From assembly GCA_963755715.1 (NCBI GenBank), contig CAVWLW010000008.1, forward strand, positions 1 through 47,712: a stretch of 47,712 bases of DNA, written 5' to 3'. The notes under the pieces are model-generated. The model saw only the letters and a program-made list of their open reading frames with translations, searched no databases and was not told the DNA's origin. This document shows, piece after piece, positions 4,669 through 30,379 of this stretch (positions are counted from its first letter, which is position 1; every line of letters begins with the position of its first letter). The DNA is from an uncultured delta proteobacterium. Its GTDB lineage: Bacteria > Desulfobacterota > Binatia > UBA9968. The translations under genes were made by a program, and so were the position numbers.

Positions 4669-5838
4669 TTAATGGCGCAGGCTGCAGAACTCTTCGTAGT
4701 CGATCAGCTCATGAATCGTCGGATGATCGCCGCACATCGGGCAATTCGGATCGCGGCGCAGATTGAGCGTATTGATCTCCATCGTCAAGGTGTTGAAGCA
4801 GAGCAAGCGTCCGACCAGGTGCTCGCCTTTGCCGAGAATAAGCTTGATCGCTTCCAAAGCTTCTATCACGCCGATCAAGCCCGGCAATACGCCTAACACG
4901 CCGGCTTCGGCACAACTCGGCGCCAGCTCTGCCGGCGGCGGCTCGGGATAGAGGCAACGGTAGCAGGGGCCTTTTTTCGGATAAAAAACCGTGGCCTGGC
5001 CTTCGAACTGAAAGATGCTGCCGTGCACGTTTGGCTTGCCGGTCAGCACGCAGGCATCGTTGACTAGATAGCGCGTCGGAAAATTATCACAGCCGTCGAC
5101 CACGAAATCGTAATCCTTGATGATTTCCATGATATTTTCGGAAGTCAGCTTGGCTTGATAAGGGATCACTTTCACATCCGGGTTGAGCGCCTCGAGAGTT
5201 TTTTTGGCCGACTCGACCTTGGGCATGCCGACCCGATCGTTGGCGTGCAGGATTTGCCGCTGCAAGTTGGAAACGTCGACAACGTCATTGTCGATGATTC
5301 CCAAAGTTCCGACTCCGGCGGCGGCGAGATAATAAGCGGCAGGTGAACCGAGACCACCCGCTCCGACCAACAACACTTTGGCTTGCAGCAGTTTCGCCTG
5401 CCCGTCCTCGCCGACCTCAGGCAGAAGGAAATGCCGGCTGTAACGGATTAACTGGTCCGGGGTATATTGAAAATCCTGAACCCATTTAAAGCCGCCATTC
5501 TTCCAAGCGCCATAGCCGCCCGCCATCGAAGAAACATTTTGATAGCCCATCTCTTTCATGACCTTGGCGGCCAAAAGCGAGCGCGTGCCGCCAGCGCAAT
5601 AAGCGATAATCGGCGCGTTTTTGTCAGGCACCGTTGTTTCCACTTTGATTTCAAGAAAGCCGCGGGGCAGGGGAAGCGCTCCTTCCAAATGCCCTTGACG
5701 CCATTCGTCGCTTTCACGAACATCAAGGATAACCGGTGACTTGCCGTTGTTTTTAAGCAGTTCGTTGACTTGCTGCGCGCTTACTTCCGGCACTTCCTTG
5801 CGCGCCTCGGCCATTATGTCTTGAAAATTCTTGGCCAT
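4669..5838 (-). CDS. moeB: Rhodanese-ThiF/MoeB fusion (sulfur-carrier adenylyltransferase, MoeZ-like)
   Basis: N-terminal rhodanese (DVRE...YCAGGTRS); RYSRH, GAGGLG, SNLQRQ, CYRC, CPMC. Confidence 0.9.
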   Translation of the reverse strand: MAKNFQDIMAEARKEVPEVSAQQVNELLKNNGKSPVILDVRESDEWRQGHLEGALPLPRGFLEIKVETTVPDKNAPIIAYCAGGTRSLLAAKVMKEMGYQNVSSMAGGYGAWKNGGFKWVQDFQYTPDQLIRYSRHFLLPEVGEDGQAKLLQAKVLLVGAGGLGSPAAYYLAAAGVGTLGIIDNDVVDVSNLQRQILHANDRVGMPKVESAKKTLEALNPDVKVIPYQAKLTSENIMEIIKDYDFVVDGCDNFPTRYLVNDACVLTGKPNVHGSIFQFEGQATVFYPKKGPCYRCLYPEPPPAELAPSCAEAGVLGVLPGLIGVIEALEAIKLILGKGEHLVGRLLCFNTLTMEINTLNLRRDPNCPMCGDHPTIHELIDYEEFCSLRH

Positions 5839-5867
5839 GATTCCTCCTAGATGGACCTTGTAGGTCT

Positions 5868-27117: not shown

Positions 27118-27801
27118 ATGGCAACCGCCAGCAAGCGACTCACACGAAAGCAACTGCGTGAACCGGATTGGTTTCAGGTCGGTTTGGAGCACGCTGTTGA
27201 ATATTTCAACGAGCATAAAGCTCTGGTGTTTTCCGCGCTTGCTGGCATCGTGATCTTGTTGGCTGCGCTCTGGGGTTGGCAGCAATTCAAAGAAAACCAG
27301 AACGTCGCCGCTTCCCAGGAGTTTACCAAAGCTCTCGCGCTCTACCAAAATCAGAAATACAACGAAGCCATACCCGCGTTCGAAAAGGTTCAAGCTTTTC
27401 GCTGGTCGCGCTATTCCGTGCTCGCGCACATTTACCTGGCCAACAGCTATCTAACGACGCATCAGTTGGAAAAAGCGCTGAGCGCTGCGGAGCGCTCCGT
27501 AGTCGCCACCAAACCGGACAGCCTTTATCGTCAAATAGCGCTGGTCACGCGGGCAGAGACTGAAGAACAGATGAAGCAGTGCAAAGGCGCGATTGAACAT
27601 TTCGCGGAAGCGGAAAAAATCACCGGCGCCTTACAATCCCGCGCGACGCTCGGCAAAGCCCGCTGCGCCGAACAAATCGGCGACATCAAGACCGCCGTTC
27701 AAGCGTATAAGGATTATCTGAAAGACAACCCGGGTTCGCCCATGGCTCTAAAAGTGACCGAGCTAGAGGCGAAATCGAGCAGCCCCGCGGTCAGCAAGTA
27801 A
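27118..27801 (+). CDS. YfgM-like membrane-anchored TPR protein
   Basis: RLTRKQLREPD N-terminus, single TM, TPR-like helices. Confidence 0.75.
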   Translation: MATASKRLTRKQLREPDWFQVGLEHAVEYFNEHKALVFSALAGIVILLAALWGWQQFKENQNVAASQEFTKALALYQNQKYNEAIPAFEKVQAFRWSRYSVLAHIYLANSYLTTHQLEKALSAAERSVVATKPDSLYRQIALVTRAETEEQMKQCKGAIEHFAEAEKITGALQSRATLGKARCAEQIGDIKTAVQAYKDYLKDNPGSPMALKVTELEAKSSSPAVSK

Positions 27802-27821
27802 AACTTTAGAGGTAATATATA

Positions 27822-27849
27822 ACGTCTGATAAGATATATTATGTAAACT
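27822..27849 (+). other. dif site (XerC/XerD chromosome dimer resolution site)
   Basis: ACGTCTGATAA-GATATA-TTATGTAAACT fits the 11-6-11 dif architecture; AT-rich intergenic location between convergent gene blocks. Confidence 0.85.
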
Positions 27850-27972
27850 TTTGTGAATTCTCCCAGATTAAACATTTGCCCAGCCCCTTCTCGCCCCTCT
27901 TCTCCCTTTGGTCGCCAGCAGTGAAAAACCAAAGCAGCAAATCTATTTTTCGTAGGAAGATTAAATAGGGAT

Positions 27973-29131
27973 CTAGAAGTAGCGCCAGAGCCACCATTTC
28001 TCAAAGCCGACCTTGGCCCAATAGATCATTCTTGATGGACCCCAGGTTCGTGGCTCGGTGGCGCCGAACGGCGGCCAGCCGGTTGGATAAGTCGTTCGAT
28101 TTGCGGCGGCGCGTCCAGCGCCGAATGCGAGCAGTCATATCGTATGCAGCCAGAGATCGACCGGTCTGCCTTTGCCGGTGATCTCAACGGCTAGATTATG
28201 CGCGAGCACGTCGGCTTCCTGATGCGCTACGCCGCCGGCCTTCGACGCCGGCATATCGGCGCAGTCGCCGATCGCATAGACGTTCTCCCACTTTGTTTCC
28301 AAGGTGTCGTAATCGACCCGGATGCCGGTTTCGGTGTCGGCGAGGCCGCTGTCGAGCAGCACTTGAGCCGGACGGTGCGGCGGCACCATCACCAATAAGT
28401 CGTAAGGGATTTTGTAATTGTAGAGCCCCTGCACGACTTTTCGCTCCGGATCGATGGAGCGCACAACAAACTCATAGTTCTGCTTGATGCCGCGCCGTTT
28501 GCTCTCGGCGTCCATCCATACCGTTGGGTCGTGCGCCTCGCCAGTGGGCTCGGCCTCGCGTGTGAAATATTCAATCGTGACCCGCTCGCGAATGCCTTTT
28601 TGGCGGAAATAACCGTCGAGCATCCATTGAGCTTCATACGGCGCCGGCGGACAGCGGTATGGCCCGAGCGGCACACCGACGACAATTCTGCCGCCGCGAA
28701 AAGCCGCCAGCGTGTCGCGCAAGCGCACGGCGGACTCCATTTCCCAGGGATGTTGCGACGACTCGGCGAAGCCCGGAACCAAATCAGGCCGCGTTTGCAA
28801 GCCCAGCGAGACGATCAAGTAATCGTAGTTGATCTTCTCCCGCTCCAGTGAAACTTCTCTGACGGGCTGGATCGATGCCGAGAATTTCCGACTGAATAAT
28901 TTTGACGTTGCGCTTTTCGAGAAGTCTCAAGCTCCGGCTGATGTCGCGCGGCTGGCGTTCACCGAGCATGATAAACAAAAACGCGGGCATGAAAATATGC
29001 TCAGCGCGGCGATCGACGAGGATCACGTCGTGGTCGGCGCCGAGCTTGCGCCCCAGGTGAGTTGCCGCTACGACGCCACCGCAGCCGCCGCCAAGGATGA
29101 CGATTTTTTTCCGCCTGGTTGAGAATTGCAT
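27973..29131 (-). CDS. Sulfide:quinone oxidoreductase-like flavoprotein, candidate selenoprotein (in-frame TGA at 28137-28135; frameshift near 28860)
   Basis: ILGGGCGG, PYRCPPAPYE, YAIGD, KAG; after TGA the frame continues LLAFGAGRA...YWAKVGFEKWWLWRYF* to TAG at 27975-27973. Confidence 0.85.
28107..28123 (-). promoter_or_regulatory. Candidate bacterial SECIS hairpin
   Basis: CGGCGC-UGGAC-GCGCCG, a 17-nt hairpin starting 11 nt after the UGA, with G at loop position 2. Confidence 0.65.
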
Positions 29132-29164
29132 GAATATTTTACGTATGGCAGGACTTATGAGTTT

Positions 29165-29344
29165 TTAGTCTTTGCGTTCCAAGCGCCGCGAGCGCAAGGC
29201 CAAACCGCGCAAATTCCGCAGCCGCTGTTCGCGCCAAAGCTCCTGCTCTCGCTTGCCATCAGGGGTCAGCTCTTTGCCGAATCGCGAAGAGGCCCGCAAT
29301 AACCAGATGACCAGTTTATCCGACAGATATTTGATCCATTCCAT
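29165..29344 (-). CDS. 59-aa hypothetical protein (below ORF-track cutoff)
   Basis: MEWIKYLSDKLVIWLLRASSRFGKELTPDGKREQELWREQRLRNLRGLALRSRRLERKD* fills the gap between co-oriented genes. Confidence 0.45.
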   Translation of the reverse strand: MEWIKYLSDKLVIWLLRASSRFGKELTPDGKREQELWREQRLRNLRGLALRSRRLERKD

Positions 29345-29410
29345 AAATCGCTGCGTTGTCAGCGCGCCGTTGGCGCCCTGCTAATTCTGCAACTCTCCGA
29401 ATCTGATTCG

Positions 29411-30379
29411 CTAACGCAGGAACGTGTCTTCCTGCCGGAGTGTGTCTTGAGCATCGAGCAAAGCTTGAGGCGTCGGCCCCGCTTCGCCGATCAAGCCGAC
29501 TTGACGCAAAAATTGGCCGATCTGCGCGTGATCGCGCGGGCTCACGGGAGCGTAGGGCCGGCAAGGGTTGCCGATATCGACGCCGAAATGCTTCATTGCC
29601 GACTTCATCACCGGCGGCAAGCCATACGCAGCCCACTTGCCGGGAAACAGCGCGTAACAACGCGCCCAAAAACGAGCTCGCTCCAAATCCCCTGCTCTGA
29701 ACGCCTTGACGATCTGTGAGCCGATGCGCGTTCCCGGTGGCGGCATCGTCGCGCCCGAGCCGCCGAGCATCAAGGTAACCAAGAGGGGCTGCATCGTGGT
29801 GAAATAATGGCCGCGTCCCGCAAGGTCGATTTGTTCGATTAATCGGGATATTTTCGTTATATCTCTCGAGCTTTCCTTAAAGTAGCGAATGTTGTCGATC
29901 TCGCTAATTTTTACGAACGCGTCCTGGGGCGGATCGGCACCGGGCCCGGGATTGTGATAGCAGGTCACCGGCAGCGGGCTCGCTGAAGCAACCTGGGTGT
30001 AAAATTCCATCAATTCGGCGATCGTCGGCTGTCCACCCCACGGCCGCAGCGGCATCAACACTTGCACCAGATCGCCGCCGACCTTTGCCGAATACTCCGC
30101 CAAATCCAAAACCTCTTTCGGCGACGGGCTCGAGCAGCCGAGGATCACCGGCACGCGTTTGTTCACCATTTCAGTCGCGACTTTTAAAACTTCTTTGCGC
30201 TCGTCGCGCGTGAGCATGGTGTATTCGGCGGCTTCGACCGCGGCGATCGTAATCGCGTCGCAATCGGCGACGATGAAATCGATTTCTTTCTCCAATGCTT
30301 TGTAGTTGACCCGATCGCTGTCGTCGAACGGAGTCAGACAAGCGCCGATGATTCCTTTGATCGGTTTGGTGAGCGCCAT
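29411..30379 (-). CDS. DapA/NAL family class I aldolase-like protein
   Basis: LTPFDD..VNY, RVPVILG, YHNP, YFKESS Schiff-base Lys. Confidence 0.85.
   Translation of the reverse strand: MALTKPIKGIIGACLTPFDDSDRVNYKALEKEIDFIVADCDAITIAAVEAAEYTMLTRDERKEVLKVATEMVNKRVPVILGCSSPSPKEVLDLAEYSAKVGGDLVQVLMPLRPWGGQPTIAELMEFYTQVASASPLPVTCYHNPGPGADPPQDAFVKISEIDNIRYFKESSRDITKISRLIEQIDLAGRGHYFTTMQPLLVTLMLGGSGATMPPPGTRIGSQIVKAFRAGDLERARFWARCYALFPGKWAAYGLPPVMKSAMKHFGVDIGNPCRPYAPVSPRDHAQIGQFLRQVGLIGEAGPTPQALLDAQDTLRQEDTFLR

What the first reader, a model, noticed from the sequence alone, without database searches (positions are those of the whole stretch)
27973..29131. Candidate selenocysteine-containing sulfide:quinone oxidoreductase
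Seen: the ORF track ends this gene at TGA 28137-28135 (LWLHTI*), but the frame stays open for 53 more codons: LLAFGAGRAAANRTTYPTGWPPFGATEPRTWGPSRMIYWAKVGFEKWWLWRYF*. Eleven nt after the UGA begins a 17-nt hairpin CGGCGC-UGGAC-GCGCCG with G at loop position 2. Established: SQR-family flavoproteins use two redox Cys, one in CPxAP (here PYRCPPAPYE) and one C-terminal in a HxxC-hydrophobic-GxGxA context, and end in a membrane-binding KxxFEKxW helix. The E. coli fdhF minimal SECIS is a 17-nt hairpin 11 nt from the UGA. Inference: UGA encodes Sec at the second catalytic Cys, giving a Cys/Sec SQR. I do not know this as a characterised selenoprotein family. Caveats: the window has many sequencing indels, including one in this gene, and no sel genes lie in the window.
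Basis: partly seen in the sequence, partly recalled or inferred. Interest (0 to 1): 0.88.

Follow-up and report, generated by a model that had tools for sequence, protein, structure and literature searches.

The report
Selenocysteine-containing sulfide:quinone oxidoreductase gene
A soil bacterium's sulfide-oxidising flavoenzyme gene has an in-frame UGA that is almost certainly read as selenocysteine at one of its two catalytic cysteine positions; such enzymes were first predicted by others in 2025, but this lineage is still filed in public databases as a shortened protein.

Summary
The minus-strand gene 29131..27973 has TGA at 28137-28135, 53 more in-frame codons, and a 17-nt hairpin 11 nt after the UGA.

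TGA sits at this column in 79 of 79 related loci that reach it, at 68-99% identity. The 53-residue tail is better conserved than the body. A 75%-identical orthologue has Cys there. Stem wobble sites are nearly frozen while loop and flanking wobble sites vary freely. The genome has selA, selB, selD and tRNA-Sec. The column aligns with the C-terminal catalytic Cys of solved SQRs.

It is not a new kind. A Sec-containing SQR was predicted in 2025 (deep-Sep), and NCBI curates it as NF049943 (motif HxxU). This Candidatus Binatia lineage scores 260 bits against a cut-off of 525. It is separated from the NF049943 representative by Cys-bearing clades (AU p 4e-6). In 119 of the 120 best database hits it appears as a protein that stops at the UGA.

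The window's copy has one extra base near 28858-28862. That base is absent from all crossing contigs of three short-read soil runs, so it is probably an assembly error. No biochemical test exists.

The parts
27973..29131 (-). Whole SQR-family gene: ATG 29131-29129, Sec-UGA 28137-28135, true stop TAG 27975-27973. About 385 codons if the extra base near 28858-28862 is ignored.
   Evidence: Intact 385-aa orthologue P0123 from L050. Pfam PF07992 and PF21706. NCBIfam best hit NF049943.
28135..28137 (-). In-frame UGA read as selenocysteine. It is residue 332 of the intact orthologue, in the motif H-T-I-U.
   Evidence: TGA in 79/79 loci. Cys in orthologue P0004. Aligns with the catalytic Cys in human SQOR and with Cys in 109 other rows of 132. 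No other letter in three short-read runs.
28107..28123 (-). Bacterial SECIS-like hairpin: 6-bp stem CGGCGC/GCGCCG and 5-nt loop UGGAC (loop 28117-28113). It starts 11 nt after the UGA and lies inside the codons for F-G-A-G-R-A-A.
   Evidence: 99.6% of 468 cells paired. The only changes are C-to-U (giving G.U pairs) plus 2 breaks. Wobble entropy is 0.10-0.27 bits at the 4 stem sites, against 1.51-1.83 in the loop and 1.72-1.93 at the flanking four-fold sites. All four bSECIS model criteria of PMC13188914 Fig. 2 are met.
28651..28653 (-). First catalytic Cys (TGT) in PYRCPPAPYE, the partner of the Sec. It is residue 160 of the intact orthologue.
   Evidence: Aligns with the Cys in PVKCAGAPQ of human SQOR. 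Invariant in the 80-row alignment A2.
28858..28862 (-). Site of one extra base that shifts the frame by +1 between ORF A and ORF B in this assembly.
   Evidence: It is the only indel inside the CDS relative to L050. All contigs of runs X1, X2 and X3 that cross the site lack one base here: depth 34.4 of 34.4, 8.9 of 8.9 and 8.19 of 8.19.
28863..29131 (-). N-terminal FAD-binding Rossmann part (KIVILGGGCGG...), in ORF A's frame.
   Evidence: Pfam PF07992 positions 1-84. NF049943 positions 1-86.
27979..28032 (-). C-terminal aromatic, amphipathic helix (IYWAKVGFEKWWLWRYF region). It is the presumed membrane anchor and is encoded after the UGA.
   Evidence: AlphaFold2 model of the orthologue: helix 367-384, pLDDT 96-98. 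K..FE is conserved in the family consensus. The tail is 53 aa long in 78/78 loci.

Best explanation
The gene encodes a membrane-associated, FAD-dependent sulfide:quinone oxidoreductase-family enzyme of about 385 residues. UGA 28137-28135 is decoded as selenocysteine by the organism's SelA/SelB/SelD/tRNA-Sec system. A small SECIS hairpin 11 nt downstream, inside the coding sequence, directs that decoding. The Sec replaces the C-terminal catalytic cysteine, the position of human SQOR Cys379. Together with Cys160 (CPPAP motif) it would form the redox-active Se-S, or Se-S-S, bridge next to the flavin.

By analogy with the human enzyme, this residue has three roles: it leaves when HS- attacks the bridge, it carries the outgoing sulfane sulfur to the acceptor, and it then resolves the Cys-flavin adduct so that FADH2 can reduce quinone. 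A selenolate would be both a better leaving group and a better nucleophile in those steps.

Shown here: the conserved in-frame UGA, the translated and conserved tail, the Sec/Cys orthologue pair, the constrained hairpin, the Sec machinery, and the SQR fold. Inferred: actual selenium insertion, sulfide:quinone activity, and any kinetic benefit. The +1 frameshift in the window's copy is most likely an assembly error (about 0.75), so the organism probably makes the full protein.
For: (1) TGA is at the same column in 20/20 loci from relatives and in 79/79 genome-contig loci that reach it. It is also present in 36/36 genome search match rows covering it (identity 70-99%). The same genes end with TGA in 25 of 78 loci, so TGA is an ordinary stop in these organisms.
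(2) The tail after the UGA is 53 aa long in 78/78 loci. Its mean pairwise identity is 83.5%, against 75.3% for the 227 aa before it. Synonymous codon differences are equal (0.377 vs 0.378 per codon) and non-synonymous ones are fewer (0.165 vs 0.247).
(3) Orthologue P0004 (385 aa, 75% identical) reads HTIC there and has lost the hairpin-encoded GAGRA (EPGKA instead).
(4) Hairpin: 99.6% of cells are paired, against 17-76% when the partner is slid. All stem changes but 2 give G.U pairs. Stem wobble sites are frozen while loop and flanking wobble sites are free. The four bSECIS criteria quoted are met.
(5) In G000, selA scores 541 bits, selB 416 bits, selD matches with its own in-frame TGA, and tRNA-Sec scores 76.7 bits. 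SelA is found in 38/41 relatives, and in 33 of the 35 that carry the TGA gene.
(6) The column aligns with the catalytic Cys of human SQOR and with Cys in 109 of the other 131 rows.
(7) An AF2 model of the read-through orthologue has pLDDT 95.0 and pTM 0.93, with the tail folded as three strands plus a helix. Foldseek finds SQRs at TMq 0.83-0.86.
(8) Contigs of three soil DNA runs from three studies keep the TGA and lack the extra base.
(9) The role of the homologous Cys in human SQOR is taken from PMC11039317 (passages).
Against: No experiment shows selenium in this protein or any SQR activity.
The hairpin shows no compensatory double change (0 of 6 pairs), and its folding energy is not better than shuffles (z +1.06).
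Rfam has no matching family.
The window's own copy is frameshifted. The runs laid are Logan contigs of other samples, or of unknown relation to the source, so they do not prove that the source organism's gene is intact.
Two MAGs with the TGA gene showed no SelA: G001 (65% complete) and G009 (93% complete, 670 contigs).
No sulfur-metabolism genes flank the gene, so the physiological substrate is inferred from homology only.
Confidence: 0.87

Rival explanations
1. This particular copy is a pseudogene. The family does use Sec, but in this genome a real 1-nt insertion near 28858-28862 has inactivated the gene.
For: The frameshift is in the assembled sequence. I could not lay raw reads of the source sample itself.
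Against: Apart from this base the gene is intact. ORF B is 99% identical in protein to a relative and the region is 94.6% identical in DNA. All crossing contigs of three short-read runs lack the base. selD of the same genome, which a selenoprotein user needs, is also split by a frameshift. Two other MAGs, G020 and G021, have this gene split at other places. These points suggest assembly indels rather than biology.
Confidence: 0.12
2. The TGA is a true stop. The organism makes a 331-aa protein without the second catalytic residue, and the downstream 53 codons are untranslated or form a separate small gene.
For: This is how public pipelines annotate it: 119 of the 120 best database hits stop at or before the UGA.
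Against: The tail is in frame, has a fixed length of 53 aa in 78/78 loci, and is under stronger amino-acid constraint than the body. It is contiguous in the Cys orthologue and in 109 Cys homologues. It folds as part of the domain with pLDDT above 90. The truncated product would lack both a catalytic residue and the membrane helix.
Confidence: 0.02
3. The TGA is a sequencing or assembly error for TGC/TGT (Cys) or TGG.
For: The assembly has at least two frameshift errors.
Against: TGA is present in 79/79 independent assemblies and in contigs of three short-read runs.
Confidence: 0.01
4. The UGA is read through without selenium, by near-cognate Trp or Cys insertion or by a reassigned code.
For: Nothing found here supports this reading. 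UGA followed by C is recalled as a leaky context in E. coli, but this comes from memory and was not tested.
Against: TGA terminates 25 of 78 of these same genes, so the code is not reassigned. A complete Sec system is present. A hairpin with selectively frozen synonymous sites sits at the canonical spacing. The site is a redox Cys, the usual place for Sec.
Confidence: 0.03

Closest known systems
[quoted passage not shown] It was predicted as an NAD(P)/FAD-dependent oxidoreductase selenoprotein in Desulfosediminicola by deep-Sep (PMC12013277) and is listed with motif HxxU in PMC13188914.
   Same: It is the same enzyme superfamily and the best NCBIfam hit. Sec is at the same alignment column: representative P0169 scores 525.3 bits over profile positions 1-330 and ends immediately before the column. 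The H-x-x-U motif is shared (HTIU here).
   Different: The intact orthologue scores only 260.3 bits against the 525 cut-off, the same as its Cys orthologue at 248.4. It is about 34% identical to P0169. A 100% SH-aLRT branch separates the two, with Cys-bearing clusters on both sides. The AU test rejects joining them (delta lnL 112, p 4.2e-6; the group was chosen after seeing the tree). The host lineage is different (Candidatus Binatia MAGs).
Human mitochondrial SQOR (PDB 6OI5, 6OI6, 8DHK) and bacterial SQRs of Aquifex aeolicus (3HYV) and Acidithiobacillus ferrooxidans (3T31 and others)
   Same: The fold matches (Foldseek TMq 0.83-0.85) and sequence similarity is clear (E 2e-34 to human). Both catalytic positions align, and there is a C-terminal helix.
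   Different: Those enzymes have Cys at both positions, whereas this one has Sec at the C-terminal one. Identity is only 21-24%. The numbering Cys201/Cys379 is from PMC11039317, and the mapping of the aligned motifs to those numbers is recalled.
Cys orthologue P0004 (385 aa, JGI metagenome, named sulfide:quinone oxidoreductase)
   Same: It is 75% identical over the whole query, with the same length and the same C-terminal helix. It nests inside the Sec clade at 99-100% support.
   Different: It has Cys instead of Sec. The residues encoded by the hairpin differ (EPGKA instead of GAGRA), as expected if the SECIS is no longer needed.
E. coli fdhF-type bacterial SECIS and the bSECIS consensus model
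   Same: It is a stem-loop just downstream of the UGA inside the coding region. There are 17 nt from the UGA to the apical loop (model: 16-37). The loop is 5 nt (model: 3-9) and the stem is 6 bp (model: 4-16). G is at loop position 2 and is followed by G. The hairpin energy is -11.1 kcal/mol (model: at most -7.5).
   Different: There is no sequence resemblance to fdhF, and no Rfam model matches. SelB binding was not tested.

Membership tests
Bacterial selenoprotein gene (Sec-UGA plus SECIS) | In-frame UGA aligned with Cys in homologues (Sec/Cys pair) | tested here: met
   P0004 has HTIC. Cys is present in 109 other rows of 132. The column aligns with the catalytic Cys of human SQOR.
Bacterial selenoprotein gene (Sec-UGA plus SECIS) | UGA conserved in orthologues and protein-level conservation continuing downstream | tested here: met
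   TGA in 79/79 loci. The tail is 53 aa in 78/78 loci, with 83.5% identity against 75.3% for the body.
Bacterial selenoprotein gene (Sec-UGA plus SECIS) | bSECIS consensus model: loop 3-9 nt, stem 4-16 bp, G in the first two loop positions, 16-37 nt from UGA to loop, MFE at most -7.5 kcal/mol (PMC13188914 Fig. 2 legend) | tested here: met
   5-nt loop UGGAC, 6-bp stem, 17 nt spacing, -11.1 kcal/mol. The bSECISearch program itself was not run.
Bacterial selenoprotein gene (Sec-UGA plus SECIS) | Base-pair covariation in the SECIS stem | tested here: inconclusive
   0 double changes. The partners are first or second codon positions fixed by the protein. Only G.U-compatible changes occur, and the stem wobble sites are frozen.
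Bacterial selenoprotein gene (Sec-UGA plus SECIS) | selA, selB, selD and tRNA-Sec in the same genome | tested here: met
   selD is itself split by a frameshift in this assembly.
Bacterial selenoprotein gene (Sec-UGA plus SECIS) | Selenium demonstrated in the protein | not testable with these tools
   This needs 75Se labelling or mass spectrometry.
NCBIfam NF049943 (SQR type III, selenoprotein subtype) | Whole-protein score at or above the curated cut-off of 525 bits | tested here: not met
   260.3 bits for intact orthologue P0123. The window's two pieces score 175.6 and 56.9 bits.
NCBIfam NF049943 (SQR type III, selenoprotein subtype) | Sec at the HxxU position | tested here: met
   The motif here is HTIU. 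Member P0169 ends immediately before the same column. The HxxU motif comes from a table in PMC13188914.
NCBIfam NF049943 (SQR type III, selenoprotein subtype) | Forms one clade with family members | tested here: not met
   (AU p 4.2e-6). Only one representative of the family was available, and its Sec is inferred from truncation.
Sulfide:quinone oxidoreductase (SQR/SQOR) family | FAD-binding two-dinucleotide-fold flavoprotein with the SQR fold | tested here: met
   Pfam PF07992 and PF21706. Foldseek TMq is 0.83-0.86 to SQR and FCSD structures, against about 0.75 to NDH-2.
Sulfide:quinone oxidoreductase (SQR/SQOR) family | Two redox-active Cys positions (CPxAP-type and C-terminal) | tested here: met
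   C160 and U332 align with the two catalytic Cys of human SQOR. C160 is invariant in A2.
Sulfide:quinone oxidoreductase (SQR/SQOR) family | C-terminal amphipathic membrane-binding helix and no cytochrome partner (distinguishes SQR from flavocytochrome c) | tested here: met
   Helix 367-384 in the model. The neighbouring genes are DHDPS-family, cyclase, TPR and bifunctional nuclease, with no cytochrome. Membrane binding itself is inferred.
Sulfide:quinone oxidoreductase (SQR/SQOR) family | Sulfide-dependent quinone reduction | not testable with these tools
   This needs an enzyme assay.
SQR 'type III' in the six-type classification | Type-specific sequence fingerprints | not tested
   I had no reference set for the six types. 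'Type III' is only the name of the best-scoring NCBIfam model.

The most novel reading that the evidence does not exclude
Selenocysteine at the C-terminal catalytic position of SQR has arisen or been exchanged several times. The Binatia lineage would be an independent, ancestrally Sec-using clade with a rare reversion to Cys that let the SECIS decay. At least three further 50%-identity clusters (P0161, P0189, P0231) also stop exactly before this column. On this reading, Sec-SQR is a widespread, systematically mis-annotated soil enzyme whose sulfide oxidation depends on selenium supply. The natural Sec/Cys orthologue pair would allow a direct test of what selenium does in a flavin-linked persulfide-transfer cycle.
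Probability: 0.5. Interest if true: 0.6.

Novelty: new member of a known kind. Interest (0 to 1): 0.45.

Why it matters
Public gene callers cut this protein at the UGA. That removes one catalytic residue and the membrane helix, so metabolic reconstructions of Candidatus Binatia and related soil MAGs carry a defective SQR record. NCBI's selenoprotein model for SQR does not reach this lineage either.

The stretch was held by at least 14 soil, rhizosphere or sediment DNA runs at a word share of 0.6 or more (only three were laid). The enzyme may therefore be common in soils. If so, it would tie sulfide detoxification or oxidation there to selenium availability.

No Sec-containing SQR has been characterised biochemically, as far as searches show. 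The close Sec/Cys orthologue pair found here is a ready-made comparison for enzymology.

Tried and rejected
Thermodynamic significance of the hairpin: rejected as evidence, because 178 of 200 shuffles fold at least as well.

Compensatory covariation: none was found. I used synonymous-site entropy instead.

Rfam scan of 27950-28250 at E up to 10: only two chance-level hits, naRNA4 at 14.6 bits and c-di-GMP-I-GGC at 10.6 bits.

Promoter and terminator scan of 27700-29500: at shuffle level and uninformative.

Gene neighbourhood: no sulfur or selenium genes lie next to the gene.

Comparison with the hairpin after selD's UGA in the same genome: no obvious shared loop, so it was not pursued.

Screen for split genes in the window: the stop-to-stop frame list was noisy, and the five pairs I scanned were separate genes. 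The rest of the list was not scanned.

RNA run X15: two contigs cover 28473-28828 only. This does not show transcription of the UGA region or of the tail.

The Sec state of P0125, P0161, P0169, P0189 and P0231 is inferred only from proteins that end right before the column. Their DNA was not seen.

Rows dropped before the trees: proteins under 290 or over 500 aa (20 of 152) before the alignment. Nine short or garbled rows (P0226, P0236, P0263, P0163, P0168, P0158, P0251, P0167, P0190) were dropped. For some searches, 55 of the 123 rows were hand-picked to keep run time down.

Alignment A2 for the fold used only rows with Cys at the column, so the invariance of C332 there is by selection.

Supplements of PMC12013277 (its Table S2 and alignments) were closed. 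They may list further TGA-containing homologues, possibly including this lineage.
Full report
WHAT IS THERE. On the minus strand a gene starts at ATG 29131 and encodes an FAD Rossmann fold (MQFSTRRKKIVILGGGCGG...). It shifts frame by +1 near 28860 and continues as a 227-codon ORF ending ...DLWLHTI at TGA 28137-28135. The same frame then runs on for 53 codons to TAG 27975-27973. Pfam finds Pyr_redox_2 and the central domain of sulfide dehydrogenase flavoprotein. The best solved relatives by sequence are human SQOR, Acidianus SQR and flavocytochrome c sulfide dehydrogenases.

IS THE UGA A CODON? A six-frame search of 41 related genomes found the gene in 35. All 36 match rows that cover the column contain exactly one TGA, at 70-100% protein identity. 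The two rows without a TGA end before the column. In 20 of 20 fetched loci the stop follows LHTI. A scan of one genome per species returned 80 loci, mostly labelled Candidatus Binatia or 'delta proteobacterium' MAGs. Of these, 79 have TGA in H-[TV]-[IL]-TGA-L-L, and the last is cut off before the column.

The tail is 53 residues long in 78 of 78 loci. It is more conserved than the 227 residues before the UGA (83.5% vs 75.3% mean pairwise identity). The rate of synonymous codon differences is the same (0.377 vs 0.378 per codon), and non-synonymous differences are fewer (0.165 vs 0.247). This pattern means the tail is translated. In 25 of these 78 loci the gene's real terminator is also TGA, so TGA is a normal stop in these organisms and the internal one needs special decoding.

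A protein-database search found one full-length orthologue, P0004 (385 aa, 75% identical), that reads HTIC at this place. In a 132-row alignment of more distant relatives, 110 rows have C at the column; one of these is the query, whose C stands for U. Five clusters end immediately before the column. The column aligns with the C-terminal catalytic Cys of human SQOR, and PYRCPPAP aligns with the other catalytic Cys.

THE HAIRPIN. In 78 distinct sequences, 99.6% of 468 stem cells pair. When the 3' partner is slid by 1-3 columns the figure drops to 17-76%. The only changes are C-to-U (giving G.U pairs) plus two breaks, and there is no double compensatory change. Covariation therefore cannot be claimed, because the pairing partners are first or second codon positions fixed by the protein. 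Synonymous sites give the RNA-level evidence instead. The four wobble positions inside the stem have 0.10-0.27 bits of entropy. The two wobble positions in the loop have 1.83 and 1.51 bits, and the flanking four-fold sites have 1.72-1.93 bits. The Cys orthologue has lost the hairpin-encoded peptide (GAGRA became EPGKA).

The element meets all four criteria of the bacterial SECIS consensus model quoted in PMC13188914 (section 5 read). It has a 5-nt loop, a 6-bp stem, G at loop position 2 followed by G, 17 nt from UGA to loop, and an energy of -11.1 kcal/mol. Against this, the folding energy is no better than shuffled sequence (z +1.06), and Rfam has nothing.

THE MACHINERY. The window's genome (7.4 Mb, 76 contigs, 93.6% complete) has selA (541 bits) and selB (416 bits). 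It also has selD, which contains its own in-frame TGA (G-U-AAKL), all three on contig C3. tRNA-Sec (76.7 bits) lies on C69. SelA was found in 38 of 41 relatives and in 22 of 22 high-quality ones. Of the 35 genomes with the TGA gene, 33 have SelA. The two exceptions are fragmented MAGs: G001 at 65% complete, and G009 at 93% complete in 670 contigs.

READS. Logan contigs of three soil DNA runs from three studies were laid on 27900-29200. Contigs crossing 28135-28137 show no other letter there. Every contig crossing 28858-28862 lacks one base relative to the window, at depth 34.4/34.4, 8.9/8.9 and 8.19/8.19. That base is the only indel in the CDS relative to a 94.6%-identical relative. The frameshift is therefore peculiar to this assembly. 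selD of the same genome is also frameshifted, and two other MAGs have this gene split elsewhere. An assembly error is the likeliest cause, but I could not lay the source sample's own reads.

STRUCTURE AND MECHANISM. The intact orthologue was read through and folded with 79 relatives. The model has pLDDT 95.0 and pTM 0.93. Residue 332 lies in strand 328-337. The tail forms two more strands and a terminal helix 367-384, at pLDDT above 90 apart from one loop. Foldseek matches SQRs of Aquifex, human and Acidithiobacillus at TMq 0.83-0.85, and flavocytochrome c flavoproteins at 0.81-0.86.

In human SQOR the two cysteines carry a trisulfide. HS- attacks it, and the C-terminal Cys379 persulfide hands the sulfur to an acceptor. 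The Cys379 thiolate then resolves the Cys201-flavin adduct (PMC11039317, passages). By homology, the Sec here takes the Cys379 role. A selenolate would be a better leaving group and a better nucleophile in those steps. This is inference, and neither selenium insertion nor activity has been measured.

WHAT IS KNOWN. [quoted passage not shown] A 2026 review lists it with motif HxxU and credits the deep-Sep paper (PMC13188914). That paper predicted an NAD(P)/FAD-dependent oxidoreductase selenoprotein in two Desulfosediminicola species, with both TGA- and Cys-containing homologues (PMC12013277, passages). So the kind is known, though only as a prediction. Full-text searches found no biochemical study and no paper linking Binatia or Binatota with selenocysteine or selenoproteins.

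HOW THIS ONE DIFFERS. The intact orthologue scores 260.3 bits against NF049943's cut-off of 525, no better than its Cys orthologue at 248.4. A true member, P0169, scores 525.3 bits over profile positions 1-330 and ends there. In a search of 1.84 billion representatives, the lineage's own clusters are followed directly by relatives of 40% identity or less.

In trees built only from columns before the Sec column, the Binatia clade (Sec, Sec and one Cys) has 100% support. It lies across a 100% branch from P0169, and each is surrounded by Cys forms. The AU test rejects uniting them (delta lnL 112, p 4.2e-6). The caveats are that the group was named after seeing the tree, that the tree used a quick search, and that Sec in the other clusters is inferred from truncation. 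Of the 120 best database proteins, 119 stop at or before the UGA, typically at 331 aa, under names such as 'sulfide:quinone oxidoreductase' or 'FAD/NAD(P)-binding oxidoreductase'.

VERDICT. This is a genuine selenoprotein gene by every computational criterion I could apply. It belongs to a kind predicted in 2025, but to a separate lineage that is unannotated and apparently common in soil. The copy in the window carries a probable assembly frameshift. Counts that include the unpublished genome G005 are marked in Tried and rejected.

Noticed in passing
G000 contig C3:71086-72013 (loci L016, L017): selD of the same genome is itself a selenoprotein gene (…KAAG-TGA-AAKLGPADL…). In this assembly it is split into two frames that overlap around residues 119-125. 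This is a second frameshift in a gene the organism should need.
   Followed up: partly
window 28138-28140 and 28134 (minus strand), columns 7-9 and 13 of alignment A1: The Ile codon before the UGA is ATA in 77 of 78 distinct sequences (wobble entropy 0.10 bits). The base after the UGA is C in 78 of 80 rows. The immediate context AUA-UGA-C therefore seems to be selected as well. UGA-C being a weak termination context is a recollection and was not tested.
   Followed up: no
proteins P0161, P0189, P0231: Three further 50%-identity clusters of SQR relatives end exactly before the catalytic-Cys column. They score 210-249 bits on NF049943 and sit in different parts of the tree. They are candidate additional Sec-SQR lineages. 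Their DNA was not seen.
   Followed up: partly
G020:C18:80815-81658 and G021:C449:1509-2272: In two other MAGs of the genus the same gene is found as two adjacent pieces in different frames, at places other than in the window. This suggests indel errors are common in these assemblies.
   Followed up: no
window 28473-28828: Two contigs of a soil metatranscriptome run (X15) match this part of the gene without any difference. This hints at expression in soil but is not proof, because DNA can be present in such libraries.
   Followed up: no
window 4672-5865 (minus strand): An open frame combines a rhodanese domain with a ThiF-family domain, a sulfur-carrier-activating type of enzyme. It lies 22 kb from the SQR gene, and no link between them is shown.
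   Followed up: no
window 29165-29344 (minus strand): A 59-codon ORF directly upstream of the SQR gene has no Pfam match. The DNA there aligns with the relative L050 with small indels, so it may not be a gene.
   Followed up: no
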